Origin: Candidatus Saccharimonadota bacterium
Lineage (GTDB): Bacteria > Patescibacteriota > Saccharimonadia > Saccharimonadales > UBA4665
Length of the DNA stretch: 32,000 nucleotides
Assembly (NCBI GenBank): GCA_963718045.1
Contig: OY970350.1
Coordinates: 450,001-482,000 of the forward strand
Reading direction: 5' to 3'
A model generated the notes under the pieces. The model did no database searches. It saw nothing but the letters and a program-made list of their open reading frames with translations, and was not told where the DNA came from. A program made the position numbers and the translations under genes. Of the stretch, positions 6,935 to 23,965 are shown piece after piece. Each line of letters opens with the position of its first letter. The stretch's first letter is position 1.

Positions 6935-6977
6935 CTATCTAGTTAGTTCAAAAATAAGTATAATATCAGTCTGTTAT

Positions 6978-7051: not shown

Positions 7052-7059
7052 GATAGTAC

Positions 7060-7093
7060 GAAGCTTGATTTTTAAGGCTTCATTTAGCTTTTT
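7060..7093 (+). terminator. Possible terminator hairpin after tRNA-Gln
   Basis: Stem GAAGCTT/AAGGCTTC (7 bp including one G-U) with loop GATTTTTA, followed by the T-rich ATTTAGCTTTTTA. Confidence 0.35.
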
Positions 7094-7138
7094 ATCTCTG
7101 TTAATTTTGTTATTTTTGAAAGTTCGATCACTCATCTT

Positions 7139-8620
7139 CTACCCTCCTATTAATTTACTTGTTTTTAACACTTTGTCGGCTATAGCTCGACAAAAATTGG
7201 TATAACTAACAGATACAACTCCATTATGTGTGGTTATGCGCTTAAAAAGTTTGGTTATTATCAACCGCTTTTGTTCTGGCATTCTATTTTGATAAATTAT
7301 GGCTGCCTTTTGGGCTAATTCAAGGATCACCAAGCGTTGTTCCAGGCTTTTTGTTACTAAAGCATCAACCTTGGCCTTTTGAGCTTCTAACGCGGTCTTT
7401 TGAGCCTTAAATACCTCATGCTTTTCTACGTACTTATCCTTAGATATATCACCGGCTAATTTATCATCATAAAGCTCATCATCCATACGCTTTATCCTAT
7501 CGATCTGCGTGGTGATCGATTCCAGCATACGAGTTCGCCTTTCAATATCGTTACGGTGTTGACTTCGGATTGAATCGGCCACCCAATCAATAATTCTAGA
7601 TGAAGGACATATTAATTTTGTAAGTTGCTCAACAATTGTGACCTCAAGCTTATCCTCTCGTAGGAACTTATTACTCTTACAAGCTGCACTTCTTCGTTGG
7701 CAAGAACCGTAATAATGGCCTTTTTGCAACTGCCAGGTTACTACGCCCCCGCAATCGTCACACCGGATCATGTTCTTAAACACCGGATTATGTTTTTTAA
7801 AGTATATTGGGCGACCGGCGTGCATTTTACGTTGCACCCTATCAAAAAGTTCTTTACTGATAATTGGTATTTGAGCTCCTGGATAATCCGTACCATTAAA
7901 ATGATTTATACCTATATAAAAAGGGTTGCTGAGGATTGTTTGAATGTAACTTTTGGCAAATGGCCGACCCTTACGGCTTCGAATACCCAACAAGTCCATC
8001 TCGTGAGTAATTGTGTTTAAGGACTGATTTGGCTCAAGGTAAAGCTTGAATATGTGGTTCATAAGACTTTCTGTGGCCGTATCTGGAACATGTATGCGTT
8101 TACCGTTATCTACAACTGTCTTATAACCTGGCGGCGGCGAGGCGGGGAGCCAACCTTGAGCTAGTTTTTCAGCCCATCCTTTCATAGCCTCTTCTCTCAA
8201 GTTGTCGGTGTATTTTTTGGCGACAGATAAATGAATGTTCCACATAAACTTAACGTCAGACTTGGCGTCTTTATGAAGTAACAAATTTTCTTTGACTGCA
8301 TGTAGTCGACGTTTATCGTCTTGCTCAAGCCAGTCGTCTATAGCTACGGCATCACGAAAGTTCCTCGTGAACCGGTCAGTTTTTTCAACCGTTAAATGGT
8401 ATATCTTATTCTCGGAAATATAAGTCAACAGTTCATGGAACGTTTTTCTGCTCTGCTCCTTTGAGGCGGTCTCAGCAATCTTAAACACCTTGACAACCAA
8501 TAACCCTTTGTTTTCACAATATCCCGTCAAAAGCTTTAACTGAGAATCAAGTGAGTAACCTTCGTCTTCCTGTGACTTACTGGAAACTCTGGCTAATATG
8601 ACTGCATTTGACTGATCCAT
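7139..8620 (-). CDS. Large serine recombinase (integrase)
   Basis: N-terminal resolvase catalytic domain (AVILARVSSKSQ...YSLDSQ), a recombinase domain, a Cys-rich zinc-ribbon (CDDCGG...GSCQRRSAAC) and a C-terminal coiled-coil. 493 aa. Confidence 0.9.
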   Translation of the reverse strand: MDQSNAVILARVSSKSQEDEGYSLDSQLKLLTGYCENKGLLVVKVFKIAETASKEQSRKTFHELLTYISENKIYHLTVEKTDRFTRNFRDAVAIDDWLEQDDKRRLHAVKENLLLHKDAKSDVKFMWNIHLSVAKKYTDNLREEAMKGWAEKLAQGWLPASPPPGYKTVVDNGKRIHVPDTATESLMNHIFKLYLEPNQSLNTITHEMDLLGIRSRKGRPFAKSYIQTILSNPFYIGINHFNGTDYPGAQIPIISKELFDRVQRKMHAGRPIYFKKHNPVFKNMIRCDDCGGVVTWQLQKGHYYGSCQRRSAACKSNKFLREDKLEVTIVEQLTKLICPSSRIIDWVADSIRSQHRNDIERRTRMLESITTQIDRIKRMDDELYDDKLAGDISKDKYVEKHEVFKAQKTALEAQKAKVDALVTKSLEQRLVILELAQKAAIIYQNRMPEQKRLIITKLFKRITTHNGVVSVSYTNFCRAIADKVLKTSKLIGG

Positions 8621-8633
8621 AGACTATCTCACG

Positions 8634-8828
8634 CTAGCTGGTCTCTGCCAGTATCTGAAAAAAATCTACCAGTGATTGACCAATATCCGTAGCTTCCTCG
8701 TATGTAACATCTCTGTTTTGCTCGGCCGACAAGATCTGACGCAATATATTTATGCTAGCGGAAGTCTCGGCATTACAGGTCGACTCTGTTAAGAAAGTAT
8801 CTCTTATTTGCTCAAACGATTCCGCCAT
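8634..8828 (-). CDS. Small acidic hypothetical protein co-transcribed with the recombinase (possible directionality factor; unknown)
   Basis: The ORF track gives 8634-8843. The internal ATG at 8828 is preceded by GAGGG about 7 nt upstream, so I prefer it as the start. There is a 13-nt gap to the recombinase start. No recognisable family. Confidence 0.4.
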   Translation of the reverse strand: MAESFEQIRDTFLTESTCNAETSASINILRQILSAEQNRDVTYEEATDIGQSLVDFFQILAETS

Positions 8829-8845
8829 GCTTATTACCCTCATCT

Positions 8846-8891
8846 GTATACTATTGCTATAGCAATAGTATACTATAGCTCTAGCAATAGT
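8846..8891. promoter_or_regulatory. Perfect 28-bp palindrome plus a third half-site: candidate operator
   Basis: GTATACTATTGCTA|TAGCAATAGTATAC at 8846-8873 is perfectly self-complementary. An extra TAGCAATAGT copy lies at 8882-8891. The site sits between the XRE gene's 3' end and the start of the small-ORF/recombinase operon. Confidence 0.5.
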
Positions 8892-8947
8892 TTCAAGTAC
8901 TTTTTACAGGTTATACACAGCTTTTTTACGAGATAAAATATACTAGG

Positions 8948-9160
8948 CTATTTACCCAATATGTCAGCTGAGGTAGCACCAATTGCATCAATAATCTTTA
9001 AAAAATTTGAAGTGGTCGGGTTTTTCTCGCCACGTTCAATTTGCGCATAATGATTCTGACTAATACCGGCCTTCTTTGCTACTTCAACTTGGGTTAGATT
9101 TTTAGCGCGCCGAGCAGTACGAATTCGATTAGCTGTTCTTTTCACTGATTCATCTGTCAT
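8948..9160 (-). CDS. XRE-family helix-turn-helix transcriptional regulator
   Basis: 70 aa with the classic HTH_3 pattern LTQVEVAKKAGISQNHYAQIERGEKNPT. Confidence 0.85.
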   Translation of the reverse strand: MTDESVKRTANRIRTARRAKNLTQVEVAKKAGISQNHYAQIERGEKNPTTSNFLKIIDAIGATSADILGK

Positions 9161-9407
9161 ATTATGTATATTGTAACATGCGCATATAGATGGTTAAATA
9201 TATAACTTAGCTAATACAGTATTTAAATACCCCGACCTAAGTGAATGTTTTATGGGGTAAAAAAGTTCTATTTCGGATCCGCCGTCTTCCAATGTTTTTT
9301 GTAGAAAAACCCATAATGTCGATATTATGGATATTTTTTCTTTTATTCTCTGTTATTCTTTTTTTTCTTTCTCCTCTATTATATATATAAATATATAGAA
9401 GAGAATT

Positions 9408-10259
9408 GTGGGGATCGGTAGTATAAGTATGGCCAGTAAAGACAGTAATATAAAGTCAAAAGATAGGAAATTAAATCAAGGTCAATTAGAAGTATTGTTG
9501 AAGTTGTATAGGTATAGATTCAGTACAAGAGAGTTAATAGCTGATAGTTTAGGTAAGAGTGATATGTCTATCTATTTAAGGTTACAGACACTGATAGCAA
9601 ATGGTTATGTAGCTAGCAGATATGATAAGAGCCATAGACTAAGCGGTAAACCGGCAGCTTATTACTTACTGCCTAAAGGTCTTCGGGCCCTGAAGCAATA
9701 TACCAACCGTGATGATATTACAGATGCAGCTATTAGAAACAGCTATAAAGATAAAGACGAACTTGTTTCAGAGCAGTTTATTGATCATAACCTGGCAGTC
9801 TATGCCATAGGCAACCGGCTACAAGCCTTTCATCCGGACATCAAACAGTTTACGAAACGCGAACTGGTTATATATAACTACTTTCCTAAACAATTGCCTG
9901 ATCTTTATTTATCAATAAAGCTAGGCGATCAAACAAAGCGGCTGTTTCTGGACTTTATTGAAGCCAGTACACCGTCATTTGTGATTGACCGGCAATTGCG
10001 GCAAAAGATTGAGTATTATCAGAATGGCGCCTGGCAGGCTAAGGGCAATTCTTTCCCGCCAATCTTATATGTCTGTGAAACCGGCAGCCTTGAAAAACGA
10101 TTACAGAAACTAGCTAGTAAAGCACTTTACCGGTCTGATACCGATATGCCAGTTTACACGACTACAAAAAATGCACTTGGTAGCGCATCTCCAAAGAACG
10201 GCTTAATCTGGTCAAGCGTTAAAGACCCGGATGAACTTGTTACTCTGATAGTACTTTAG
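9408..10259 (+). CDS. Replication-relaxation family-like protein (wHTH + PD-(D/E)xK-like core)
   Basis: The N-terminus LNQGQLEVLLKLYRYRFSTRELIADSL...LQTLIANGYVASR...YYLLPKGLRAL resembles the Replic_Relax wHTH. Later motifs are HNLAVYAIGNRL and PDLYLSIK...RLFLDFIEAS. Start uncertain (GTG 9408 or ATG 9429). Confidence 0.5.
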   Translation: MGIGSISMASKDSNIKSKDRKLNQGQLEVLLKLYRYRFSTRELIADSLGKSDMSIYLRLQTLIANGYVASRYDKSHRLSGKPAAYYLLPKGLRALKQYTNRDDITDAAIRNSYKDKDELVSEQFIDHNLAVYAIGNRLQAFHPDIKQFTKRELVIYNYFPKQLPDLYLSIKLGDQTKRLFLDFIEASTPSFVIDRQLRQKIEYYQNGAWQAKGNSFPPILYVCETGSLEKRLQKLASKALYRSDTDMPVYTTTKNALGSASPKNGLIWSSVKDPDELVTLIVL

Positions 10260-10292
10260 AGCAGTTTATCGCCTTACTCAGGGCGTAAAGAG

Positions 10293-10562
10293 CTAGTTAT
10301 TCTCGATAACTTCTAGCCAGTTGACTCGGGCTAGAGCAGTACCGAGTAAATCACTCCACAGACTGGCTTCCAGCTCTAAGTCGCACATCTCATCTTGCAA
10401 CTCAGATTCCAGCCACTCGGACTTCGTGACTGTATTGCCGGCTCTCTTACAGGCCGTTTGCAGCAAATCATAACTAGCTGGATCGTTATTTAGCCATAAG
10501 CTTACTAGCCATGTCTCACGGTTCGACCAACCGTTGTATGCAACCGACACTGTGTCATTCAT
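10293..10562 (-). CDS. Hypothetical protein (conserved-looking GWSNRETWLVSLWLNND motif)
   Basis: 89-aa ORF lying 2 nt downstream of the preceding small ORF. Trp-rich motif of a type I associate with phage/plasmid small proteins, but I cannot name the family. Confidence 0.45.
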   Translation of the reverse strand: MNDTVSVAYNGWSNRETWLVSLWLNNDPASYDLLQTACKRAGNTVTKSEWLESELQDEMCDLELEASLWSDLLGTALARVNWLEVIENN

Positions 10563-10564
10563 GG

Positions 10565-10759
10565 CTAGTTACTACCTTTCAGACCGCATAGCTCGCAGTC
10601 ATAATTCTGATTGATAATGTCTGTCAGCTCCTGATCACAGGTTGAATCAACACAATCAGCTAAGTCATAGTACTGGCAGGCACAGACGGCCAGTAGCGCA
10701 TCCTTTTCAAGTGCCAATCTTGCTGGACCGTTATCTACGATTAAATTTGATAAATTCAT
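10565..10759 (-). CDS. Small Cys-rich acidic hypothetical protein
   Basis: The ATG at 10759 is preceded by AAAGGAGAAGAG (a good SD). The track's longer 10810 start has no such signal. 64 aa with 8 Cys (CACQ..C..C..CELC). Confidence 0.45.
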   Translation of the reverse strand: MNLSNLIVDNGPARLALEKDALLAVCACQYYDLADCVDSTCDQELTDIINQNYDCELCGLKGSN

Positions 10760-10800
10760 AACTCTTCTCCTTTTTACTTTACGTAATAAGGAGGAAGGCG

Positions 10801-10876
10801 CAGCCCGCAAGCGATTCTGGCAAGGTGGAGACTAATAAGTACAACCTTGCCAGAATTGATCGGGCTGTACAATTAG
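10801..10876. repeat. Copy A of a ~63-nt hairpin-plus-box element
   Basis: Inner 13-bp perfect stem ATTCTGGCAAGGT (10814-10826) / ACCTTGCCAGAAT (10844-10856) with a 17-nt loop. Outer stem CAGCCCG (10801-07) / CGGGCTG (10861-67). Conserved box TTGATCGGGCTGTACAATTAG. Confidence 0.7.
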
Positions 10877-11104
10877 GCACCTACGTAAAGCAATGCTAGC
10901 TCTCGGCTTAGTGTCTGGTATTTTCTGTCTACGCTGACATTATCCCTTTCTATAATCTTTGAAAGCATATGACAGGCTTGGACAGGTACAGAATAATCAT
11001 TCAGCTTCATAGTTGTGTATTATTCCGTTATATTATTAAATGGTAATTCTGTTAGGTGTTTTTCTAATTAAAATGTTATAGAATTATAGTAATGAGTTAG
11101 TAAT

Positions 11105-12103
11105 ATGATGAAACTTAATTTATTAAAAAAAGTATTTTTGTATTTTGGCGTTTGGCTAGCTTGTTTTTTGCTTATTTTCTCTTCTAAAGTATTTGCCGAT
11201 CCGATATTTACTCTTGTGGGATTATCTGGTGGTACAGAAGTTGATGGTTATTATACCAGTGCTCCAACATATACTGTTCAACTAAGCCCCACATACCCTA
11301 ATTTATGCCAGTCCTCTGACCCAAATTACCTAACGGTTCAAGAAAATCTTCAACCAATGGGAGCGAATATAACTGGTAATTATCAATGGGAATTATTAGA
11401 AGATATGAATAATGACGCTTTGGTTCTAAAAGATTTAACCCAAAACTATGGGACCGACCTTGTTGCTTGTAATTGGAATACGCCTAATCCAAATTACCAA
11501 GTTCTTTGGAGTCAAACAATTCAATACGATGAGAGTAGCCCAACAATTAGTATTACTTCGCCTAGCAATAATACTGACTTTGCTAGTTCTACTAGTCAAA
11601 TCACAGTTTCTGGTACTGTCAGCGACTCAGGGTCTGGTATCCAATCAGTTACAGTTAACGGAGTAAATGCCACCGTCAGTGGTTCAATTTATTCAGCTGC
11701 TGTAAATATAAATTATGGCTTGAATACAATAACTGCTGTTGCTACTAGCAATGTTAACTCAACCACAACCTCACAGCCTATAAGTGTATTTAGGTATGAA
11801 AGCGCCAGTAGTGGCTCTGGAACTAGTAATACTATAACAAACCCAATCCAGCCAGTTACAACCCCTAGTAATACAACAGTTACCCCAACAGTAACAACAA
11901 CCACCCCTACAGTTACATCTACTACAAGCAACAATACCAATATGCAACCGAAAACAACTAATAGCTCTGCAATATCAACTCCAGTTAAAGTTGCTGGCAG
12001 TGTTGGTGTTGCGGGCGGCGCAGGACTAGCAACAGCAAGTTTCTTGGGTTATGTACCTTATAAAAAAATTGGCTTATTGATTTTTAAGATAGTTGGTAAA
12101 TAA
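11105..12103 (+). CDS. Secreted/cell-surface protein with Ig-like domain, Thr-rich stalk and C-terminal membrane anchor
   Basis: Signal peptide (KVFLYFGVWLACFLLIFSSKVFA|DP). Ig-like segment (ISITSPSNNTDF...ITVSGTVSDSGSGIQSVTVNGVNATVSG...NTITAVAT). T/P/S-rich linker. C-terminal hydrophobic segment plus a basic tail. Confidence 0.7.
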   Translation: MMKLNLLKKVFLYFGVWLACFLLIFSSKVFADPIFTLVGLSGGTEVDGYYTSAPTYTVQLSPTYPNLCQSSDPNYLTVQENLQPMGANITGNYQWELLEDMNNDALVLKDLTQNYGTDLVACNWNTPNPNYQVLWSQTIQYDESSPTISITSPSNNTDFASSTSQITVSGTVSDSGSGIQSVTVNGVNATVSGSIYSAAVNINYGLNTITAVATSNVNSTTTSQPISVFRYESASSGSGTSNTITNPIQPVTTPSNTTVTPTVTTTTPTVTSTTSNNTNMQPKTTNSSAISTPVKVAGSVGVAGGAGLATASFLGYVPYKKIGLLIFKIVGK

Positions 12104-12175
12104 AAATTAGGGTTTGTTCTTTGTAGGTACTAATGTTGGAACCCGTTTACTCCCAGAATTATCGTATGCTACCCG

Positions 12176-12200
12176 TAAAGCTCCTGTCAGAAGAGCTTTA
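12176..12200. terminator. Possible bidirectional terminator hairpin between convergent surface-protein genes
   Basis: 8-bp perfect stem TAAAGCTC/GAGCTTTA with a 9-nt loop, followed by a weak T-tract on the plus strand (GGCTTGTTGATTTTG). Confidence 0.3.
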
Positions 12201-12238
12201 GGCTTGTTGATTTTGAACTTATCCATAGCTTAATAATT

Positions 12239-12952
12239 TCAACAACCAGGGTATTCGGTTTTAAGATTAGATTGCTGCTGTTGAAGGCTGCTCAACTGCT
12301 GATCATATTGTGCTGTTAGCGAATTGATTAGGTTTTGCGTTTGTGATGCTGTGGTTCCGTACCCATTACCTGCTGATTCAGCTGTCTGATCAACATTCGC
12401 TAAATCATCTTTCACTACTGTTATCTGTTGATTTAGCGAAGAGAACTGGGAGTCATACGAGCTACAATCAACTGTCGGCGTAGTGCTAGGGGTTGTGGTC
12501 GGTGTTGTAGACGTATTAGTAGTCTGGTTGCTGAGGCTTGACGCATTGATCTGATCTTGTTCTTCCTGGAGTTGGATAGCTTCAGCATTGGCAGTGTCTG
12601 TTTGAGCATTTTGTAAGTCTTGTTCATAATTAGCGCAGTCACTGGCAATAGCTGCATTAGCTGCTTCATTAGCACTGGTGCATATTGAACTAATATTAGT
12701 GGTTGTAGTTGTAGATGAGCCACTTGATGGAGTTGTGCTTGACCCTGAAGATGAATTAGAACTATTTGGTTGCGATATAACACTATCGGATTGTGCCGAT
12801 TGCGTTAGGTTTTTAGACACATTGTTAGAATTGTTAATAGGTATAATCTCTATAGCTGCCACAGCGCCAAAACCTATAATTAGCAAGCCCATAATAAAGG
12901 TGGCATACTTATGCGCAATAACTATATGCTTTACAGCTCGTAGAGCTTTCAT
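12239..12952 (-). CDS. Membrane-anchored S/T/Q/N-rich extracellular protein with paired cysteines
   Basis: N-terminal TM (ATFIMGLLIIGFGAVAAIEII), Ser/Thr-rich tracts, Q/N-rich coiled-coil-like segments, Cys residues, C-terminal EYPGC. SD GGGAGAG upstream of the ATG at 12952. Confidence 0.65.
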   Translation of the reverse strand: MKALRAVKHIVIAHKYATFIMGLLIIGFGAVAAIEIIPINNSNNVSKNLTQSAQSDSVISQPNSSNSSSGSSTTPSSGSSTTTTTNISSICTSANEAANAAIASDCANYEQDLQNAQTDTANAEAIQLQEEQDQINASSLSNQTTNTSTTPTTTPSTTPTVDCSSYDSQFSSLNQQITVVKDDLANVDQTAESAGNGYGTTASQTQNLINSLTAQYDQQLSSLQQQQSNLKTEYPGC

Positions 12953-12984
12953 AACTCTCCCTTTTTATGTCTTAATTGTAGCAT

Positions 12985-13046
12985 TTACAGGCAATGGTGG
13001 AGATAAAAATACTACCTTGCTGGAGTTGATCGGGCTGTGCAATTAG
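12985..13046. repeat. Copy B of the ~63-nt hairpin-plus-box element
   Basis: CAGGCAATGGT-GGAGATAAAAATACT-ACCTTGCTGG hairpin (imperfect) followed by TTGATCGGGCTGTGCAATTAG. The 33-nt right part (13014-13046) matches 10844-10876 at 29/33 positions. Confidence 0.7.
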
Positions 13047-13097
13047 AGACAGCATAAAAAAAATAGCGTTGAGCTAGCTATCTATAAAAGACTGTTT

Positions 13098-14438
13098 TTA
13101 AGGGACTTCTCTTAAAACATTAACTCTAAACTTGTTAGAAATCGACCTACAACGATCGTTTTCTAATACAAATGCTCGTATCCAATGCTTGCCGGCCCAA
13201 CTAACAGCTTCAGTTCTTTGTGGCTGATCGTCAACCATACTATTGGGGTCTTCAAAATGTCCTCGAATCTGAAACGGCACCTCACCCGGGTCATTCATAA
13301 CTTGCCACTTAACAATATGCCCGGGCTGTAACTCTTCGCTTAGCTTAAACTTTAAGCTATCAAGGTTTTGCCGGCTAGTTTCACTATTCAGGTGGCCAAA
13401 AGGCACCGTAAGTTCATACAGGCTACCAGCTATAGAGCCGTTGTCGCAATCTGCCTCAATTTTGTATTGACCGGCATAATCACAATCGAAGTAAATGCCT
13501 TGGTTGCGAAGCGGAAGTTCTTTGAAATGCTTTAAAGTTGCCGGCAAACGATCTCCAAACAAGTCTGTTAGTAATTGATAGTTGTCGGTTTGCGTATACT
13601 GCACGATCGTCCGGCTAATCTTATCAGACAGTTGCTTAATTTTATCTTCTACTTCTTGACCTATGCGTTGCCCCAGATCTTCTGCTTCGTTAACCGGGTT
13701 TAGGACTTGATAATTAGGATCTGAAAGGTTGATTTTAATATTACGGGATAATTCTAAAAGCTCTCTTAGGTAGTGACCATTTTGTTTGAAGATGTAACTG
13801 TCATAGACTAGCCGCTGAAGATAAATAGATGGAACTATAATTCCGTTCATTTGGGCAAGCCTCTTGAAAAGAATGTATAGAGGTCTAAAGGTGGGAGCTG
13901 CTGACGAAGCTGCAAAATTTTTAAACCAGTTTATAAGAGCAACCGGATCACTTAGCTCCCATTGATCTACCGTATTATTACTTACCGCTACGTATCTATG
14001 GCCGTTCATAACTAATATTGGCGTTATATCGAGATGAAATTTTTCGCCACTCGGGCCTTCGGCGTACTGAACCCTCACGCAACGATGTTTAATAGTTGTG
14101 CTTCTGTTTGAGTAGTCCGATGAGGAGCCTAGGGCTTGAGCGATTGATTTTAGGGCGCCGCTGGCCGCCACCCACTTTCGGGATTCTAGCACTACGTCCA
14201 CGTCAAACTCGACCGTTTCATCTTCGTCAATTAGAGGTTGTACGGTAGTTCGAGTAGCAAAAGAACCTTGTTCATAGCAACTAATATCGTCCGGCAGCTC
14301 ATCATTGTTGTCACTGAAAAAGTTACACAAGCCATTGATGGCATCATTAGAACGCTTAAACTGCGATTTGTTTAATATCAACTTATTGAGGTAGAGTTCA
14401 ATTACCCTATCAATCTCGTGTCGATCAATATCGGCCAT
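13098..14438 (-). CDS. SMODS/CD-NTase-like nucleotidyltransferase with C-terminal beta-rich (AGS-C-like?) domain
   Basis: Pol-beta NTase signature in SMODS order: G58-S59 (YEQGSFATRT), D79-x-D81 (EFDVDVVLES), D137 (FHLDITPIL), then QWELSDPVALINWF. The last ~130 aa form a separate domain. AGGAGG SD 5 nt upstream of the ATG. 14-nt overlap with the upstream ORF. Confidence 0.7.
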   Translation of the reverse strand: MADIDRHEIDRVIELYLNKLILNKSQFKRSNDAINGLCNFFSDNNDELPDDISCYEQGSFATRTTVQPLIDEDETVEFDVDVVLESRKWVAASGALKSIAQALGSSSDYSNRSTTIKHRCVRVQYAEGPSGEKFHLDITPILVMNGHRYVAVSNNTVDQWELSDPVALINWFKNFAASSAAPTFRPLYILFKRLAQMNGIIVPSIYLQRLVYDSYIFKQNGHYLRELLELSRNIKINLSDPNYQVLNPVNEAEDLGQRIGQEVEDKIKQLSDKISRTIVQYTQTDNYQLLTDLFGDRLPATLKHFKELPLRNQGIYFDCDYAGQYKIEADCDNGSIAGSLYELTVPFGHLNSETSRQNLDSLKFKLSEELQPGHIVKWQVMNDPGEVPFQIRGHFEDPNSMVDDQPQRTEAVSWAGKHWIRAFVLENDRCRSISNKFRVNVLREVP

Positions 14439-14949
14439 TATCCCTCCTATTTGTTTTATAATACTGCCACCGACGTTTTAATCTAGAAAATGGATTAAAG
14501 AAATCACGAACGTCAGCTAAGAACTTATCAGTGCACTGACTAATGTCGGGATGTTTCTCATTTTCCAATTTTGCGCCGGGGCCTTTGGCTTGACTATCCC
14601 AGGCTTGCTGCATTAAAGGTGCGGTTATTTTTTTAATTTCGACGACGAAGCTCTGATAAGCTTTACCAAACCATATTGATTCTGTTCTTAGTAGGCCAAT
14701 GTAGTAGTCTGTTTTTGTTTGGATATCATGCATTTCATCGCGTATGCTAATAGCATCTTGCTCGGCTAGCGTTTTATCAGCCGAGCGTCTGCTTATGCGG
14801 TAAAGTAATTCTAGTCTGGCCAAAGTTGTTTGATAAGCTTCGGCAATAAGTTCTTTACGACGTAACCGAGTTGCTTGTAATTGCCCAATAAACGCAACTC
14901 CTAAACCACCAGTTATTATACCGATTAGGATATTTTTGAACGTATCCAT
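14425..14949 (-). CDS. Single-pass membrane protein of unknown function (candidate effector/sensor of the NTase operon)
   Basis: N-terminal TM helix FKNILIGIITGGLGVAFIGQL, a helical cytoplasmic part, and a strongly basic C-terminus (FSRLKRRWQYYKTNRRDNGRY). GGAGGG SD upstream of the start. 5-nt gap after the repressor gene. Confidence 0.6.
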   Translation of the reverse strand: MDTFKNILIGIITGGLGVAFIGQLQATRLRRKELIAEAYQTTLARLELLYRISRRSADKTLAEQDAISIRDEMHDIQTKTDYYIGLLRTESIWFGKAYQSFVVEIKKITAPLMQQAWDSQAKGPGAKLENEKHPDISQCTDKFLADVRDFFNPFSRLKRRWQYYKTNRRDNGRY

Positions 14950-14954
14950 ACTAA

Positions 14955-15578
14955 TTAACCCTCCGGTGTAGATAAAACTTGAATGACTTTGCCAGCCACT
15001 ACCGCATCGGGCTGATCAGCTTCATGTAAAAATATAGGTGTATAGTAGTCATCTGTTGACTCAGATATAAAAACAACTTGGTTGTTAAGAGGATCAAAAT
15101 AATAACGCTTAATGTTGGCTAGTCCCTCAACTACTGCCACAACATAGTCACCTGGCTCGGGTTGTGTTGATGCGCTGTCAACAATCACAAAATCACCATC
15201 GTTAATCGGCTGACCGTGGACGCCAGCGCGATTCATTGACGTGCCTTGAGCCCTTAGGGCAAACAGATCATCGTATCTTGTAGTTTGGAGCAGACGTGAG
15301 GAAACTTTAAGATGACCTTCAACTCTTTCGTCCGCGAAAATATCGGCCGGACCGCAGTTTGCCGCACCGACTATAGGAATCGAAACAAGTTTAAATCCAG
15401 ATTTCGATATTAAATTTTTACTATTGAAGTTATATCCTAATTTCTCTAGTCGATCTTTATTGTACTTGACAACCTGAGGGCTTTTTGCGCCAGTGAGAGA
15501 GGCTATTTCACTTAAGCTTAGCTTAGTTACATCACGTTCACGGCTTAGGATGATAATTGCTTGCTGGATTTTATTCAT
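14955..15578 (-). CDS. LexA-like repressor (wHTH + S24 autopeptidase), paralog 1
   Basis: N-terminal HTH (LSLSEIASLTGAKSPQVVKYNKDRLEKLGY), linker IPIVGAANCGPA (Cys-Gly candidate cleavage site), Ser motif AQGTSMNRAG, Lys motif ANIKRY. Confidence 0.8.
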   Translation of the reverse strand: MNKIQQAIIILSRERDVTKLSLSEIASLTGAKSPQVVKYNKDRLEKLGYNFNSKNLISKSGFKLVSIPIVGAANCGPADIFADERVEGHLKVSSRLLQTTRYDDLFALRAQGTSMNRAGVHGQPINDGDFVIVDSASTQPEPGDYVVAVVEGLANIKRYYFDPLNNQVVFISESTDDYYTPIFLHEADQPDAVVAGKVIQVLSTPEG

Positions 15579-15620
15579 AAGGTCAGTATAGCATAAAATA
15601 GTTTTATGGTCGTAGCATTA

Positions 15621-15645
15621 ATTACAATATTAATTATATTGTAAT
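15621..15645. promoter_or_regulatory. Perfect 10-5-10 palindrome in the divergent promoter region: candidate LexA-like operator
   Basis: ATTACAATAT-TAATT-ATATTGTAAT. It lies 43 nt upstream of the repressor ATG (15578) and 106 nt upstream of the HNH gene start (15751). Confidence 0.5.
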
Positions 15646-15750
15646 GCCGCTATAGGTGGTGTTATTATCATAACTGTAGACACTAGTAGTGAGGGTTACT
15701 ACCTGGGGAGCAACACCAAAATAACCCATATTAATTAAGATCCAAAGAAA

Positions 15751-16155
15751 GTGAGCAAATCTATGGACTCAAAAAGCTTAATCCCAACGTCAAATCATAA
15801 CTTACGGAGTTTATTATCACTCCCGGTGGCGGCTAAACCCATAAAACAATATAGCAAAAAAACTGCCGGTGCCGCTTTTAATGAACTCGAGATGGCGGCT
15901 GTATGGAATAAAGCCCTCAGTATACCTGGCTATGATTTGCGGTTATGGCGACGAGACGCGTGTGGGGCACCAATATATCGCTCAAACTATGGTAAAACCG
16001 TTGAAACTGGTTGGGAAATTGATCACATCAACCCTGTCTCAAACGGCGGGGGCGACAACTTGGCAAACTTACAGGCGTTACAGTGGGAAAATAATAGACT
16101 TAAAGCAGATAAACTAACTAATTTGTATTGCGTAGTACCAAAGAGAGGAGCCTAA
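15751..16155 (+). CDS. HNH endonuclease
   Basis: C-terminal His-Me finger GWEIDHINPVSNGGGDNLANLQALQWENNRLKADK. Start ambiguous (GTG 15751 or ATG 15763). Confidence 0.8.
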   Translation: MSKSMDSKSLIPTSNHNLRSLLSLPVAAKPIKQYSKKTAGAAFNELEMAAVWNKALSIPGYDLRLWRRDACGAPIYRSNYGKTVETGWEIDHINPVSNGGGDNLANLQALQWENNRLKADKLTNLYCVVPKRGA

Positions 16156-16157
16156 CT

Positions 16158-16283
16158 ATGCCCTGGCATCTAATAAATGATCCAAAATATAGCCCATTAA
16201 ACCCCATTAAACCCGTGAGGCCATTGAAGCCATTACGACCACTAAAACCTCTACAACCCCTAAGACCACTTAGGCCGGAATGA
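16158..16283 (+). CDS. 41-aa proline-rich micro-ORF with nine tandem P-[LIV]-[KRNQ] tripeptide repeats
   Basis: The ATG lies 2 nt after the HNH stop (TAACTATG) and GAGAGGAG lies upstream. Sequence MPWHLINDPKYS-PLN-PIK-PVR-PLK-PLR-PLK-PLQ-PLR-PLR-PE. Codons vary synonymously between repeats. Confidence 0.4.
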   Translation: MPWHLINDPKYSPLNPIKPVRPLKPLRPLKPLQPLRPLRPE

Positions 16284-16393
16284 TCCAGAATTTTCTACGT
16301 CGTATCAAGCTTACGCGAGCGCAACACATAGACATGAAGATGCTAAGCAAGCTGCGACAATATCTCGACTTGAACATCAAGTTCGTGTATTGA
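16280..16393 (+). CDS. Possible 37-aa basic micro-ORF, ATGA-coupled to the repeat peptide
   Basis: The ATG at 16280 overlaps the TGA at 16281-83. Sequence MIQNFLRRIKLTRAQHIDMKMLSKLRQYLDLNIKFVY. A competing start-less frame (16273-16428) is also open, so the call is weak. Confidence 0.25.
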   Translation: MIQNFLRRIKLTRAQHIDMKMLSKLRQYLDLNIKFVY

Positions 16394-16431
16394 CCGACAA
16401 ACTAGAGTCCAAAAATTCTATAGCTTAACTA

Positions 16432-17100
16432 TTAGCTAACGGGGACAACATCAACTACTTTGCCGGCGATTGAATATACGCCGCTGTCTTCTTCGGATAC
16501 AACAATTGGAGGCAATGGTTCTTTAGATTCTGACAGGAGTAATATCCTTGAGTTAACTGGGTCAAAAACAAGTCTTTTAATATTGGCAACTTCGTCAAAT
16601 ATGGAAACCACATAATCCCCATTGCTTGCCTCGTCAGTTTTCTCAACTAATACGTAGTCTCCGCTGTTAATCGGCTTCCCAGATATGTTTGCTGCATTCA
16701 TTGAGTTGCCAACTGCCTTTAAGGCATAGAGTTTATCTAGTTTAACCTTTGGCAGTAGTGACGGCGAGAGGCGTAAAAACTCTTTTACCCGGTCATCAGC
16801 GACGCTGGTAGCCGAGCCACAGTTAGCCTCACCCATTACCGGTATGCTAAGTAAACCTAAAAACTTCTCACCTTCAGTGACCTTAGTGATTTCACCAGAT
16901 TTTGGGTCACGAAATAGAAGGCCTTTTTCTACAAGCTGGTCTAAATGAAATTTGATACTACCATGATTGGCTACGCCGAGCCGTTTGGCCAGGCCGTAAT
17001 AGCTACTAGAGCCCAGGTTTTCGGTATCCGCCAGGGCAAGTAGCTGTTCTTGTACTTGATGCATTAGCATTAGTATAAGGGGTGATTCCTGGTCTGTCAA
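16432..17100 (-). CDS. LexA-like repressor (wHTH + S24 autopeptidase), paralog 2
   Basis: wHTH (YYGLAKRLGVANHGSIKFHLDQLVEKGLL), linker IPVMGEANCGSA, Ser motif AVGNSMNAAN, Lys motif ANIKRL. Clearly alignable with paralog 1 through the whole S24 domain. Confidence 0.8.
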   Translation of the reverse strand: MTDQESPLILMLMHQVQEQLLALADTENLGSSSYYGLAKRLGVANHGSIKFHLDQLVEKGLLFRDPKSGEITKVTEGEKFLGLLSIPVMGEANCGSATSVADDRVKEFLRLSPSLLPKVKLDKLYALKAVGNSMNAANISGKPINSGDYVLVEKTDEASNGDYVVSIFDEVANIKRLVFDPVNSRILLLSESKEPLPPIVVSEEDSGVYSIAGKVVDVVPVS

Positions 17101-17353
17101 ATCGAATTACGGTTTTTAGTTACGAAATACTTGCGCTATTTTTGGCTGCCTGTTAGACTAGGGGTGAGTTTTAAAAAAAGTTTTGGGACTCGGACGTGCT
17201 GAGGGTCACCCCGGCCATTAACAAGAAGCCTAGAAAAGAAAGACACCAGGGTTAACTGGTGTCGGGTGTACTTAGTTTTGCAACGTTTGTACGCTCCCTA
17301 TTCTAGCAGCAATAACTAATTCTGGCTAAAGCTAGATATAAGGAGTCGCCACT

Positions 17354-17587
17354 ATGGCATCTAAAAACAACATTCATACTACCTACAGTAAGTCAGCTGG
17401 TAACTGGCGCAACATTCGTGAGGGAGCCAGCAAACCCGCAAAAGTCTATGACACCAAAGCCGAAGCCCAGGCTGCCGGCCGAAACATGGCAATTAATAAT
17501 AAATCTGAACAGCTAATCCATGACAAAAATGGCAAAATAGCTGAGCGTAACAGTTACGGGAACGATCCATTCCCACCTAGGGGTTAG
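17354..17587 (+). CDS. DUF2188-like small protein
   Basis: Pattern W.N.....KP.KVYDTKAEAQAAGRNMA......QLIHDKNGKI.ERNSYGNDPFPP matches what I remember of DUF2188. AAGGAG SD 7 nt upstream. Confidence 0.6.
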   Translation: MASKNNIHTTYSKSAGNWRNIREGASKPAKVYDTKAEAQAAGRNMAINNKSEQLIHDKNGKIAERNSYGNDPFPPRG

Positions 17588-17591
17588 TAAT

Positions 17592-17912
17592 ATGAGACGG
17601 ATTTACGACGCAGCGTTCGCCCCGAACACCAATGGTACACACCACTCCCATTTAGGCACGTTTTGGTGGGTAGATAAGGACGACAAAAGCATAAAAGGTG
17701 CCTGGCACTCAAGGGATGACGCGCACGATTACGTCCTAGGCCACCGCGAAACGGTTTACGTAGCAGAACCTGGCGAGTGGGCTTGGGTCTACGCCTACCA
17801 CCACACAAACGACCCGACTATTAAATGGATTCAGACTGAAGCGGACGGCAAATTGCCGGACAACCTGATAACATTAGCGAAAAGACATGCCCAAGGGTTG
17901 CCAAATGATTAG
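17592..17912 (+). CDS. Hypothetical Trp/His-rich protein (locally GC-rich gene)
   Basis: 106-aa ORF lying 4 nt after the previous stop. No family recognised. Hand count of 17701-17820 gives about 59% GC. Confidence 0.5.
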   Translation: MRRIYDAAFAPNTNGTHHSHLGTFWWVDKDDKSIKGAWHSRDDAHDYVLGHRETVYVAEPGEWAWVYAYHHTNDPTIKWIQTEADGKLPDNLITLAKRHAQGLPND

Positions 17913-18816
17913 GAAAACTAGAATCCGAAGCCTAAACCCATATATTAAATTAATACCCGACAAGCCAAACGTTTACGTGGGGGTTATCAGCCCACCGGCA
18001 CTAACACTAAAACGGATTGGGTTTAGTGATTCACCTGAAGCTGGTGAAACCATACTCCCACGCCCAGTTGGCAAAGCGAGCCGGTACAACGCCTATGGCA
18101 AACGTATAGTCCATAAAGACCAGCCCTTGGAAACTGCCTACACTACGGTGGAGTGGCATTGGACTGAGTGGCACGGGCGAGATAAGGTTGAGCAATCTGA
18201 TTTCAGGGACAGACCCTATAAAAGATACCCCCGAACCTCTGTTCCACCCCCTTCTTTACAGTTAACTATCTTTACCAATACTGCAGGTGAAAAGGTAGCA
18301 TTAACCCCATTAATCAACAACTGGAAGGCTAGCCAAGGTGATTTAATCCACGCCGTTAACCTAATGCTAGATATTTTTGGAGAGGCTACGTTTTTTGACG
18401 ATAAATTGGAGCAAGTTATAAAGGCGCCAATTAAAAGTCTTAACTGGAAGATTTTACCAAAGGGCGCGCGCCCATTTGCCGAATTGGAAGGTCACCTCAA
18501 ACAAGCACTTAACAGAGTGAAACAAGGTAATCGGAGTTTTGTTGACCACCGCTTGGATCGCCTGAATAGTTACAAGCCGGAATTTACAGCTATTGGCCAG
18601 GGTGGCTTTACTGGCTACGTTGTGTTTGGTTATCCGAAGAAAAATATCTATGTGCTTGAAAGTATCTTGTACGGCAACGCTACATACGTACTTGGCAACG
18701 ATTGGGAAAAGATTTCAAAGCTGACCAAAGCGGAGATTTTAAATGACCAGCTTCACAAAGAGCGTATCATCCACGTTCGCAACTGGTTTGAGAAAATTCG
18801 TAAGCTACTCAGCTAA
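17905..18816 (+). CDS. Hypothetical protein (~303 aa), unknown family
   Basis: Long ORF. The ATG at 17905 overlaps the upstream stop by 8 nt (the track start 17887 is also possible). No motif I can assign. Confidence 0.55.
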   Translation: MIRKTRIRSLNPYIKLIPDKPNVYVGVISPPALTLKRIGFSDSPEAGETILPRPVGKASRYNAYGKRIVHKDQPLETAYTTVEWHWTEWHGRDKVEQSDFRDRPYKRYPRTSVPPPSLQLTIFTNTAGEKVALTPLINNWKASQGDLIHAVNLMLDIFGEATFFDDKLEQVIKAPIKSLNWKILPKGARPFAELEGHLKQALNRVKQGNRSFVDHRLDRLNSYKPEFTAIGQGGFTGYVVFGYPKKNIYVLESILYGNATYVLGNDWEKISKLTKAEILNDQLHKERIIHVRNWFEKIRKLLS

Positions 18817-18817
18817 T

Positions 18818-21027: not shown

Positions 21028-21294
21028 TTATTCTCCTTTAGAATAGTATGGCATAATTCAACACCTTGCGCTATTGGGGTATATTTGTGCCTGTCATATT
21101 GCTAAAAAAAGAGTCTTGTTATAGATACTACAACAGCCTGAAACTGTATGTACTAGTTTGTTATCGATGCTCTTTATCTGTTGCTATGCACCAGCTTGAT
21201 TATTATTAACTATTATTGCTTTGATTGTATATCACCCCTGTTAGGAGTATAATAAGGGTATAAACATTAGAGATAACGAGAGGGTAATAGTAAC

Positions 21295-21573: not shown

Positions 21574-21631
21574 ATACTCTCTATTTACATAAGACAGTTG
21601 ACTCTGTTAAACACAGAGCTATGCTGTCAGT

Positions 21632-22891: not shown

Positions 22892-22894
22892 TAA

Positions 22895-23923: not shown

Positions 23924-23965
23924 AAGATGTAGCGGCTAATTGAGTATCTAGTTCGAATAAGCGAA

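What the first reader, a model, noticed from the sequence alone, without database searches (positions are those of the whole stretch)
13098..15578. LexA-like repressor + single-TM protein + SMODS/CD-NTase-like enzyme: a compact, possibly damage-gated CBASS-like operon with no recognisable effector
Seen in sequence: three minus-strand ORFs form one tight unit. The S24 repressor (14955-15578) is followed after a 5-nt gap by a 174-aa protein with one N-terminal TM helix and a very basic tail. That ORF overlaps a 446-aa protein by 14 nt. Strong SD boxes (GGAGGG, AGGAGG) precede both internal starts. The 446-aa protein has G58-S59, D79xD81 and D137 in the spacing and context of SMODS/CD-NTase enzymes, then W..SDP, and an extra ~130-aa C-terminal domain. 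Established knowledge: SMODS (often with AGS-C) enzymes synthesise nucleotide second messengers in CBASS-type conflict systems. They are normally paired with an effector, frequently small 2-TM SLATT proteins. Some CBASS are regulated by the two-protein CapH/CapP repressor-protease module. Inference: the 1-TM protein is the membrane effector or a sensor. A single self-cleaving LexA-like protein as first gene would then place the module under RecA*/DNA-damage control. I do not recognise this repressor-TM-NTase architecture as a described system.
Basis: partly seen in the sequence, partly recalled or inferred. Interest (0 to 1): 0.8.

Follow-up and report, generated by a model that had tools for sequence, protein, structure and literature searches.

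The report
Type I CBASS behind LexA-like repressor
A standard two-gene CBASS anti-phage system (one-helix membrane effector plus a cyclic-nucleotide synthase) sits directly behind a LexA-like self-cleaving repressor gene at the end of a small mobile element in a Saccharibacteria genome. In related elements the same slot holds other defence systems, so the CBASS is ordinary but the repressor-led defence slot is a modestly new arrangement.

Summary
Three minus-strand ORFs (S24 repressor 14955-15578, 174-aa protein 14425-14949, 446-aa SMODS+AGS_C cyclase 13098-14438) are packed with a 5-nt gap and a 14-nt overlap, and the catalytic G58-S59, D79xD81 and D137 are invariant in 25 homologs.

The 174-aa protein is a recognisable effector: it matches PADLOC's CBASS "1TM effector" models. 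The pair is therefore a canonical Type I CBASS, not a new system.

S24 is not a CBASS component. The cyclase's nearest relatives (75%, 72%, 42% identity) keep the 1TM-cyclase pair but lack S24.

Close S24 homologs lead a variable slot, with junctions of at most 28 nt. The slot holds three other unrelated CBASS, a Pycsar, ThsB-TIR+SLATT, OLD-family ATPases, DUF2130, unknown genes, or nothing.

The locus lies at the end of a ~9-kb serine-recombinase element (~7052-16277) next to tRNA-Gln. A second S24-bearing element follows it.

Best reading: this is a defence-cassette hotspot co-transcribed with an MGE-borne LexA/CI-like repressor, comparable to λ cI-rexAB, BTP1 cI-bstA and E. coli lexA-dinF. 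Expression would be basal, with a possible boost after DNA damage. I found no paper describing an S24-type regulator in front of immune operons, so that aspect is a new variant of a known theme. Interest is moderate.

The parts
13098..14438 (-). CD-NTase (SMODS / DncV-like NTase core) fused to a C-terminal AGS_C Ig-like domain, 446 aa; the CBASS cyclase
   Evidence: Pfam SMODS 1.7e-13, DncV-like_NTFase 4.6e-9, AGS_C 1.1e-7. PADLOC Cyclase PDLC00793 4.6e-33 over residues 18-439. GS, DxD and D are invariant in 25 homologs.
14425..14949 (-). CBASS 1TM effector, 174 aa: an N-terminal TM helix, a helical bundle and a basic tail
   Evidence: PADLOC Effector '1TM' PDLC00666 4.1e-11 and PDLC00665 1.1e-6. 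Always found directly upstream of and overlapping the cyclase in relatives. Hydropathy. AF2 model pLDDT 73, all-helical. The family comprises 170 clusters at 50% identity.
14955..15578 (-). S24a: LexA/UmuD-like self-cleaving repressor (wHTH-like N-terminus plus S24 peptidase), 207 aa; first gene of the transcription unit
   Evidence: PF00717 9e-15. NCBIfam lexA 55.9 bits, below the 110.95 cut-off. Aligns to UmuD' with GTSM (S114) on GDSM and NIKR (K157) on TVKK. S114, K157 and G76 of the 'ANCG' motif are invariant in the family.
15585..15592 (-). Extended -10 promoter element (TGCTATACT region) ending 6 nt before the S24a ATG; implies a leaderless S24a-1TM-cyclase mRNA
   Evidence: About 12 of 14 S24-clade loci have the same TGnTATAAT-like element 4-7 nt (mostly 6) before the ATG, with no Shine-Dalgarno. 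This is an inferred promoter.
15590..15610 (.). Proximal inverted repeat CATAAAA-CTA-TTTTATG overlapping the core promoter; candidate operator
   Evidence: (positions -32 to -12). The TAAAACT half is conserved in L011, L014, L027 and L029.
15621..15645 (.). Perfect 10+10 inverted repeat ATTACAATAT-N5-ATATTGTAAT in the divergent S24a/HNH intergenic region; candidate S24 operator
   Evidence: 100% complementary. It is unique in the window, with 0.06 expected by chance. It overlaps the -35-like TTGTAA of the HNH-ward promoter-like site and a second minus-strand promoter-like site. It contains the TGTAA/TTACA half-site that is 6.5-fold enriched upstream of S24 genes.
15751..16155 (+). Small HNH endonuclease-like gene divergent from S24a; the conserved partner of this S24 clade
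   Evidence: Pfam HNH 2.8e-5. Homologs at 45-62% identity sit divergent from S24 in L011, L014, L029 and L032.
7052..16277 (.). About 9-kb integrative element carrying the CBASS. It contains serine recombinase 7139-8620(-), HTH 8948-9160(-), Replic_Relax 9408-10259(+), a 2.1-kb insert at 10877-12987, the CBASS, S24a and HNH. It lies next to tRNA-Gln (6978-7051).
   Evidence: tRNA. Pfam. blastn to the Saccharibacteria MAG locus L007 shows homology from 5882 to 16277 only, minus 10877-12987. The boundaries are approximate.
16432..17100 (-). S24b: a second LexA-like repressor (35% identical to S24a) belonging to the adjacent element, with an empty downstream slot. The true start is probably the ATG near 17064.
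   Evidence: PF00717 1.3e-15. Promoter-like TTGACA-17-TATACT at 17100-17072. Alignment to the family N-terminus. The divergent DUF2188 partner matches those of L015, L024 and L030.

Best explanation
The 174-aa and 446-aa genes form a canonical Type I CBASS. The CD-NTase-AGS_C cyclase would make a nucleotide signal on phage infection, and that signal would activate the single-pass membrane effector to kill or arrest the cell. The cassette is cargo. It occupies a variable slot immediately 3' of a LexA/CI-like S24 repressor gene, at the distal end of a ~9-kb serine-recombinase element integrated beside tRNA-Gln in a Saccharibacteria (CPR) genome. In related elements the same slot, fused just as tightly to the S24 stop codon, carries other CBASS types, Pycsar, ThsB-TIR+SLATT, OLD-family ATPases, DUF2130, unknown genes, or nothing. 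S24 therefore belongs to the element's frame, and the slot is a defence hotspot. The cargo is most likely transcribed from the S24 gene's own leaderless promoter. That would make CBASS expressed at the repressor's autoregulated steady-state level while the element is resident, as with λ cI-rexAB and BTP1 cI-bstA. It would rise further if DNA damage triggers S24 self-cleavage, as with E. coli lexA-dinF. What is shown here: the gene identities, the junction geometry, the lack of synteny with the CBASS relatives, the cargo variability and the element's extent. What is inferred: co-transcription, operator function, self-cleavage and the direction of regulation.
For: Identity of the pair. No Cap2, Cap3 or HORMA-type genes occur in the element, hence Type I. 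CBASS travels without S24: P0002 (75%), P0003 (72%), P0009 (42%) and L010 (41%) all keep 1TM+cyclase with other upstream genes. S24 is followed by variable cargo: L014 PycC 1e-61 + PycTM 2e-30; L020 ThsB 5e-73 + SLATT_3/SLATT_1; L021 OLD/AriA/GajA-like x2; L022 1TM effector 1.7e-55 + Cyclase 1.7e-180, only 23% identical to the window's; L027 and L030 CD-NTase + Cap15; L015 DUF2130; L011 310 aa + DUF4145; L024 and L034 unknown; L029 empty. Junctions from the S24 stop to the next start range from -8 to +28 nt in all cargo-bearing cases. S24 clades broadly track the divergent neighbour (HNH vs DUF2188), while close S24 relatives carry different cargo. Element extent comes from the L007 comparison. 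Several homologous S24 loci are on IMG/VR viral contigs next to a bona fide TerL. Promoter and operator evidence. [quoted passage not shown]
Against: The window's element lacks the TerL/ParB-MTase frame, so it is not demonstrably a prophage. 'MGE repressor' is inferred from position only. None of 80 ParB-MTase-probed frames carried S24, so S24 is not an obligate part of that frame. A cargo-less S24+HNH pair also occurs in an apparently chromosomal context (L032), so the family may be the host LexA. Of the 11 cargo-bearing elements, 7 carry known abortive-infection-type systems (6 of them nucleotide/NAD-signalling), whereas the S24-less frames carry R-M. That pattern could instead indicate a dedicated regulatory link. 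There are no expression data. The neighbourhood sample is small (about 13 distinct elements) and drawn from S24a's nearest homologs.
Confidence: 0.7

Rival explanations
1. S24 is a dedicated, portable, single-protein DNA-damage switch for toxic immune operons, a LexA-type counterpart of CapH/CapP, CapW and CapK/CapS. It keeps CBASS low until RecA*/ssDNA-triggered self-cleavage de-represses the operon.
For: S24 is followed by diverse immune operons, just as capK-capS are (348 of 443 followed by immune operons, PMC13373217). S24-led cargo is dominated by abortive-infection or signalling systems, while S24-less frames carry R-M. S24+cargo also occurs outside the TerL frame (L014, L027, window). 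The dyad is intact. TGTAA-type repeats lie at -30 to -67 of the S24 promoters.
Against: The closest CBASS relatives function without it. Empty-slot and cargo-less S24 copies exist (L029, L032, window S24b). Because S24 and the cargo share one transcript, the cargo cannot be fully off. S24 co-varies with its divergent neighbour rather than with its cargo. I found no published precedent, and nothing was tested experimentally.
Confidence: 0.25
2. S24a is simply the host's (or a duplicated host) LexA, and the CBASS cassette inserted into the lexA operon by chance. The adjacency has no functional significance beyond read-through transcription.
For: The family is widespread in CPR genomes and sources often name it LexA. 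There is a partial match to the NCBIfam lexA model. L032/L033 show S24+HNH without cargo in a housekeeping context near MgsA.
Against: S24a lies inside the segment shared with L007 that ends at 16277 and starts at the recombinase/tRNA side. There are two S24 genes 1 kb apart in one window, each next to a serine-recombinase element. Recurrent tight fusion of different defence cassettes to S24 in at least 11 elements is not expected from chance insertion. It scores well below the lexA equivalog cut-off (55.9 vs 110.95).
Confidence: 0.1
3. The three genes are an obligate three-component CBASS-like system in which S24 is an integral sensor component. This is the literal first-reader reading.
For: Tight packing and strong SD sites. 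A second S24 -> 1TM -> AGS_C-cyclase arrangement exists in L022.
Against: The nearest cyclase and 1TM homologs lack S24. The L022 CBASS is unrelated in sequence (23% identity), and its S24 is only 33% identical. S24 precedes many non-CBASS cassettes.
Confidence: 0.03

Closest known systems
Type I CBASS with a 1TM effector and a CD-NTase-AGS-C fusion (Millman et al. 2020 classification; PADLOC 'Cyclase' and 'Effector 1TM' models)
   Same: A two-gene operon of effector plus cyclase, with no Cap2/Cap3 or HORMA/TRIP13. The SMODS core has the GS...DxD...D residues and a C-terminal AGS_C Ig-like domain (present in about 40% of Type I CBASS, 10.1101/2023.05.21.541620). The effector matches the 1TM models.
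   Different: The host is a CPR/Saccharibacteria bacterium. The match to the 1TM models is moderate (4e-11). The signal molecule and the effector mechanism are unknown: the model is a helical bundle with no solved structural relative.
Repressor-adjacent abortive-infection loci of temperate phages: λ cI-rexAB and BTP1 cI-bstA (PMC8585504); the Vibrio P2-like hotspot between cI and integrase (PMC9122126)
   Same: A defence gene or genes lie immediately downstream of, and presumably share the promoter of, an S24-type repressor. The site is a hotspot of mosaic diversity. Like the λ cI P_RM transcript, the predicted repressor mRNA is leaderless (the λ fact is from my own knowledge).
   Different: The repressor here is LexA/UmuD-like rather than λ CI-like. 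The element is a ~9-kb serine-recombinase/relaxase element with no virion genes in the window. The cargo comprises CBASS, Pycsar and Thoeris-like systems. The host is CPR.
DNA-damage-responsive regulators of immune operons: CapH/CapP (10.1101/2022.04.27.489752), CapW (PMC11662680), CapK/CapS (PMC13373217)
   Same: A regulator gene or genes sit directly upstream of many different immune operons, CBASS among them. The regulator belongs to a class that senses DNA damage. It is related to regulators that control prophage or ICE induction.
   Different: It is a single self-cleaving S24 protein, not an HTH + metallopeptidase pair, a WYL protein or a kinase/substrate pair. It lies on the same transcript as the cargo. 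No experimental evidence exists, and no Cap-type regulator domains are present.
E. coli lexA-dinF operon (own knowledge)
   Same: A gene co-transcribed downstream of an autoregulated lexA is expressed basally and induced by DNA damage.
   Different: The cargo is an immune system on a mobile element rather than a chromosomal efflux gene.
P2/P4 prophage and satellite defence hotspots (PMC9122126)
   Same: Conserved flanking genes with highly variable defence cargo, carried on small integrative elements.
   Different: The frame genes differ (S24, HNH/DUF2188, ParB-MTase, TerL, serine recombinase) and the host phylum differs.

Membership tests
CBASS (Type I) | A CD-NTase/SMODS-family cyclase scoring above curated thresholds | tested here: met
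   Pfam SMODS 51.6 bits (cut-off 26.5) and DncV-like_NTFase 37.5 bits (cut-off 24.9). PADLOC Cyclase 4.6e-33 over the full length.
CBASS (Type I) | Catalytic Pol-beta NTase motif (GS ... DxD ... D) intact | tested here: met
   G58, S59, D79, D81 and D137 are invariant in 25 homologs.
CBASS (Type I) | An adjacent effector gene of a recognised Cap/TM class | tested here: met
   PADLOC Effector 1TM at 4.1e-11 and 1.1e-6. The gene overlaps the cyclase by 14 nt, and the pair is conserved in L001-L006 and L010.
CBASS (Type I) | No ancillary Cap2/Cap3 (Type II) or HORMA/TRIP13 (Type III) genes | tested here: met
   Pfam scans of all ORFs of 90 aa or more in the window show none.
CBASS (Type I) | Synthesis of a cyclic oligonucleotide and phage protection | not testable with these tools
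   Needs LC-MS and phage challenge.
   No Pfam family at E of 1 or below for the 174-aa protein. Only one hydrophobic segment.
LexA (NCBIfam TIGR00498 equivalog) | Score above the equivalog cut-off | tested here: not met
   55.9 bits against a cut-off of 110.95 for S24a, and 68.5 bits for S24b.
S24 self-cleaving repressors (LexA/CI/UmuD superfamily) | S24 domain with the Ser nucleophile and Lys general base | tested here: met
   PF00717 9e-15. S114 (GTSM) and K157 (NIKR) are invariant in the family and align to the GDSM and TVKK motifs of UmuD'. Assigning these to UmuD's catalytic Ser60 and Lys97 rests on my own knowledge.
S24 self-cleaving repressors (LexA/CI/UmuD superfamily) | A cleavage-site dipeptide (Ala-Gly or Cys-Gly) in the linker | tested here: inconclusive
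   A conserved 'A-N-C-G' motif (A73, C75 at 90% or more, G76 invariant) sits in the linker. It resembles UmuD's Cys-Gly site (own knowledge), but cleavage was not tested.
S24 self-cleaving repressors (LexA/CI/UmuD superfamily) | An N-terminal DNA-binding domain and a cognate operator | tested here: inconclusive
   The window protein has no Pfam HTH hit, although some family members hit LexA_DNA_bind PF01726. Candidate operators lie at 15590-15610 and 15621-15645. Binding was not tested.
S24 self-cleaving repressors (LexA/CI/UmuD superfamily) | RecA*-stimulated autocleavage | not testable with these tools
   Needs biochemistry.
CapH/CapP regulator module | An HTH repressor plus an ImmA/IrrE-type Zn-metallopeptidase gene pair upstream of the immune operon | tested here: not met
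   No metallopeptidase or XRE-HTH gene lies next to the operon. The upstream gene is an S24 serine peptidase.
MGE defence hotspot | Conserved flanking gene(s) with different cargo in related elements | tested here: met
   S24 (45-73% identical), with its divergent HNH or DUF2188 partner, is followed by at least 9 different cargo types or none.
MGE defence hotspot | The locus lies within a mobile element | tested here: met
   tRNA-Gln plus a serine recombinase and Replic_Relax. Presence/absence boundaries come from the L007 comparison. No att repeats were found, which is expected for serine recombinases.

The most novel reading that the evidence does not exclude
In CPR bacteria, LexA-like S24 proteins would serve as portable, single-protein, self-cleaving DNA-damage switches fused transcriptionally to abortive-infection immune operons (CBASS, Pycsar, Thoeris-like, OLD). 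That would be a fourth class of damage-responsive immune regulator alongside CapH/CapP, CapW and CapK/CapS, and the first that plugs immune expression directly into the RecA/SOS pathway.
Probability: 0.25. Interest if true: 0.7.

Novelty: new variant of a known kind. Interest (0 to 1): 0.42.

Why it matters
The CBASS itself adds only a CPR example of a known class. The context is more useful. It points to a recurrent hotspot where diverse defence cassettes are fused to a LexA-like repressor gene on small mobile elements of Saccharibacteria and other CPR bacteria. Little is known about immunity or its regulation in these organisms. If the S24 protein controls these cassettes, it would link the classical SOS switch directly to abortive-infection immunity. 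The slot could then be mined for new defence genes, such as the unknown 310-, 332-, 399-aa and DUF2130 cargos.

Tried and rejected
rejected. The hits are SMODS, DncV-like and CBASS cyclase models.
- **SLATT effector:** rejected, with no Pfam hit and a single TM segment.
- **Structure of the 1TM effector:** the AF2 model from a 3-sequence alignment is moderate (pLDDT 73). The Foldseek PDB search gave nothing with E below 1, so there is no mechanistic lead.
- **Genome and metagenome scans with the cyclase alignment:** these returned only 3 and 1 loci. The viral-contig scan returned none. Synteny therefore rests mainly on exact-protein contig look-ups.
- **L007:** it looked like independent synteny support but is the same element with frameshifts, so I did not count it.
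- **Probing viral contigs with the frame's ParB-methylase:** 80 loci and no S24. This showed S24 is not obligatory in that frame.
- **DNA alignment of the S24/1TM junction with S24-less relatives:** uninformative upstream of the start codon.
- **att-type direct repeats around the tRNA:** only chance-level matches.
- **Promoter and terminator scans:** counts were at chance level, so I used them only together with cross-locus conservation.
- **Rfam:** only the tRNA.
- **Literature:** no paper on S24/LexA-like regulators upstream of CBASS or other defence systems. The 'S24' hits are table numbers. The Patescibacteria SOS paper (PMID 28618189) is not held.
Full report

Yes. The ORF list gives three consecutive minus-strand ORFs at exactly the reported coordinates:

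| ORF | Coordinates | Length |
|---|---|---|
| S24 protein | 14955-15578 | 207 aa |
| TM protein | 14425-14949 | 174 aa |
| Cyclase | 13098-14438 | 446 aa |

- There is a 5-nt gap between the first two ORFs and a 14-nt overlap between the last two.
- GGAGGG and AGGAGG precede the two internal starts (sequence read).
- Pfam assigns Peptidase_S24 (9e-15) to the first ORF. It assigns SMODS (1.7e-13), DncV-like NTase (4.6e-9) and AGS_C (1.1e-7) to the last, all above the curated cut-offs.
- The 174-aa protein has one hydrophobic N-terminal segment and a basic tail, with 8 K/R against 1 D/E in the last 25 residues.

**2. What the cyclase and TM protein are**

- PADLOC models match the 446-aa protein as a CBASS oligonucleotide cyclase over its whole length (PDLC00793, 4.6e-33).
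- They match the 174-aa protein as a CBASS "Effector, 1TM" (PDLC00666 4.1e-11; PDLC00665 1.1e-6).
- 1TM, 2TM and 4TM are the transmembrane effector classes of the Millman 2020 classification, as quoted in 10.1101/2022.04.27.489752.
- About 40% of Type I CBASS cyclases carry the Ig-like AGS-C fusion (10.1101/2023.05.21.541620).
- No Cap2/Cap3 or HORMA/TRIP13 genes occur in the window.

The pair is therefore a canonical Type I CBASS, and "no recognisable effector" is wrong.

- The effector family is moderately large, with 170 clusters at 50% identity.
- An AlphaFold model is of moderate quality (pLDDT 73, pTM 0.63). It shows a TM helix followed by a helical bundle.
- It has no solved structural relative, so the killing mechanism remains unknown.

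**3. Is the S24 gene part of the system?**

The cyclase's closest relatives all keep the overlapping 1TM+cyclase pair, but their upstream genes are tiny ORFs, Mrr, PLD-like or other genes. None has an S24 gene. These relatives are:

- P0002, 75% identical
- P0003, 72% identical
- P0009, 42% identical
- a 41%-identical metagenome locus (L010)

The only locus with the same three genes, L007 from a Candidatus Saccharibacteria MAG, is a frameshifted copy of the same element (95.7% DNA identity). It gives the host lineage but is not independent evidence.

**4. What the S24 gene is attached to**

The S24 family is widespread in CPR genomes and sources often call it LexA. In the neighbourhoods of S24a's nearest homologs, S24 is the first gene of a variable slot.

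| Locus | S24 identity to S24a | Genes after S24 |
|---|---|---|
| window | 100% | 1TM + AGS_C cyclase (CBASS) |
| L011/12/13/16 | 73% | unknown 310 aa + DUF4145 + Zn-ribbon protein |
| L027 | 69% | CD-NTase + Cap15-type effector (CBASS) |
| L029 | 66% | nothing; the convergent serine recombinase follows directly |
| L014 | 61% | PycC (1e-61) + PycTM (2e-30) (Pycsar) |
| L024 | 55% | two unknown proteins |
| L015 | 54% | DUF2130 |
| L030/31 | 48% | CD-NTase + Cap15 (CBASS) |
| L034/35 | 45% | unknown 399-aa protein, then housekeeping genes |
| L020 | 37% | ThsB-TIR (5e-73) + SLATT_3/SLATT_1 |
| L021 | 33% | two OLD/AriA/Gabija-like ATPases |
| L022 | 33% | 1TM effector (1.7e-55) + AGS_C cyclase (1.7e-180), then DUF2130 |

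- The L022 cyclase is only 23% identical to the window's, so that CBASS is unrelated.
- In every cargo-bearing case the next gene starts between -8 and +28 nt from the S24 stop.
- On the other side, S24 is divergently paired with a small HNH-like or DUF2188 gene.
- In many loci that side continues with a ParB-methylase, a 135-aa protein, a genuine terminase large subunit and a serine recombinase. The terminase has 633 phage matches, with E values down to 2e-30.
- Several of these contigs are classed as viral by IMG/VR.
- S24 clades broadly follow the type of divergent partner, whereas close S24 relatives carry different cargo.

The slot behind S24 is therefore a defence-cassette hotspot, and the CBASS is one interchangeable occupant.

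**5. The element in the window**

- tRNA-Gln lies at 6978-7051.
- It is followed by a large serine recombinase (7139-8620), a small HTH gene, a Replic_Relax protein (9408-10259), the CBASS, S24a and HNH.
- L007 is homologous from the housekeeping MgsA side up to 16277, then diverges. It lacks 10877-12987.
- This defines a ~9-kb integrative element at about 7052-16277, with S24a and its cargo at the distal end.
- The window's element has no terminase or ParB-methylase.

Immediately to the right lies a second element:

| Feature | Coordinates |
|---|---|
| S24b | 16432-17100 |
| DUF2188 | 17354-17587 |
| GmrSD-HNH | 18818-19912 |
| EcoRI-like methylase | 19909-21027 |
| Second serine recombinase | 21632-22891 |

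S24b has the same topology as S24a but an empty slot.

**6. Regulation (inferred)**

- About 12 of 14 S24-clade genes have a TGnTATAAT-like extended -10 that ends 4-7 nt (mostly 6) before the ATG, with no Shine-Dalgarno. That implies leaderless mRNAs.
- Upstream of S24a are two candidate operators. One is a perfect 10+10 inverted repeat at 15621-15645, unique in the window with 0.06 expected by chance. The other is a 7+7 repeat at 15590-15610 that overlaps the core promoter.
- The distal repeat overlaps the -35-like hexamer of the HNH-ward promoter-like site.
- TGTAA/TTACA is the most enriched 5-mer in the 90 nt upstream of the 14 S24 genes: 17 sites against 2.6 expected, and at most 13 in 2000 shuffles. 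In several loci it occurs as direct repeats 10-11 nt apart.
- This fits citations of a direct-repeat LexA motif in Patescibacteria (PMC7739468). I could not read the primary paper.
- The S24 protein keeps the Ser114/Lys157 dyad and a conserved A-N-C-G linker motif.
- It scores below the NCBIfam LexA equivalog cut-off, 55.9 against 110.95 bits.

No promoter-like or terminator-like feature separates S24a from the CBASS genes beyond chance-level hits. The cassette's similarity to S24-less relatives begins at the 1TM start codon. Co-transcription from the S24 promoter is therefore the most economical reading.

One consequence follows. The repressor must be made continuously, so CBASS on the same mRNA cannot be silent. 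DNA damage could boost it, as with lexA-dinF, or lower it, as with λ P_RM. It could not simply "gate" it.

**7. Comparison with known systems**

[quoted passage not shown] Examples are λ rexAB and BTP1 bstA, at a site noted as a mosaic hotspot (PMC8585504). A Vibrio prophage hotspot also lies between cI and the integrase (PMC9122126).
- Regulators that raise immune-operon expression after DNA damage are known too: CapH/CapP, CapW and CapK/CapS.
- I found no report of an S24/LexA-type protein in that role, or of this hotspot in CPR elements.

Two observations keep the "dedicated regulator" reading alive:

- S24-led cargo is mostly abortive-infection or signalling systems. Of 11 cargo-bearing elements, 7 carry known Abi-type systems and 6 of those are nucleotide/NAD-signalling.
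- Closely related frames without S24 carry R-M systems on that side instead.

The sample is small and was drawn from S24a's nearest homologs.

**8. Verdict**

- The enzyme, effector and repressor identities are right.
- The claims of an unrecognisable effector and of a novel three-gene CBASS-like system are not supported.
- The locus is a known-type Type I CBASS sitting in a repressor-led defence slot of a small Saccharibacteria mobile element.
- The arrangement is a new variant of known themes (repressor-adjacent prophage defence loci, and damage-responsive immune regulators).
- Interest is moderate at 0.42. It would be higher (about 0.7) if S24 proves to be a dedicated SOS-type switch for immune operons. 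I put that probability at roughly 0.25.

Noticed in passing
window 16278-24600: A second S24-bearing serine-recombinase element lies in tandem with the first. It contains S24b (16432-17100, empty cargo slot), DUF2188, DUF3892, an unknown 309-aa protein, GmrSD_N-HNH (18818-19912), an EcoRI-like methylase (19909-21027) and a serine recombinase (21632-22891). DUF4145 (22895-23923) and Mrr (23966-24586) follow. Together with the first element this forms a ~18-kb defence island beside tRNA-Gln.
   Followed up: partly
window 17064-17100: The mechanical TTG start of S24b is probably wrong. The family N-terminus (MH.IQ...) and a near-consensus TTGACA-17-TATACT promoter (17100-17072) point to the ATG near 17064 and a leaderless mRNA.
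   Followed up: partly
L011, L015, L020, L021, L024, L030, L034, L036-L042: A family of small CPR elements has a serine recombinase, TerL, a 135-aa TerS-like protein and a ParB_N/N4-N6 methylase, with defence cargo on the divergent side. L020 comes from a 9.1-kb contig, but no element boundaries were determined. No capsid or tail genes were seen in the fetched stretches. They may be phage-satellite-like elements of CPR bacteria.
   Followed up: partly
window 10877-12987: A 2.1-kb segment is absent from the otherwise collinear L007 copy, so it is a recent insertion or deletion inside the element. It encodes a secreted Glucodextran_B/cadherin-like protein (11105-12103) and an S/T/Q-rich low-complexity membrane protein (12239-12952).
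   Followed up: partly
L002:7364-7561, L004:7326-7523 (also L003, L005, L006); window 8948-9160: A 65-70-aa XRE-type HTH gene lies convergent immediately after the cyclase in the S24-less CBASS loci. Its homolog in the window sits between the recombinase and Replic_Relax. It may be an alternative regulator or an element gene.
   Followed up: no
L011:7530-8771, L014:7017-8174, L001:7338-7931, L022:4235-5860: A Zn-ribbon protein family (my 'fam10') recurs at the far side of the cargo in several loci, and right after the cyclase in L001. It may be the conserved distal flank of the hotspot.
   Followed up: no
window 16128-16283 and L007:4046-4246: A short ORF at the element's right end encodes a PLKPLRPLKPLQPLRPLRP-type proline/leucine repeat. 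It is conserved in L007. Its function is unknown, and it may mark the attachment-site region.
   Followed up: no
L015, L024, L030, L032 upstream of S24 (-65 to -34): TGTAA(A) direct repeats spaced 10-11 nt apart lie upstream of S24 genes, whereas window S24a and L034 have the half-sites inverted. This may be the CPR LexA-box in two architectures.
   Followed up: partly
L032/L033: An S24 + HNH-like divergent pair with no cargo lies in a housekeeping context (ASCH, NUDIX, MgsA) and is seen on 17 contigs. It may be the chromosomal LexA locus from which the MGE copies derive.
   Followed up: no
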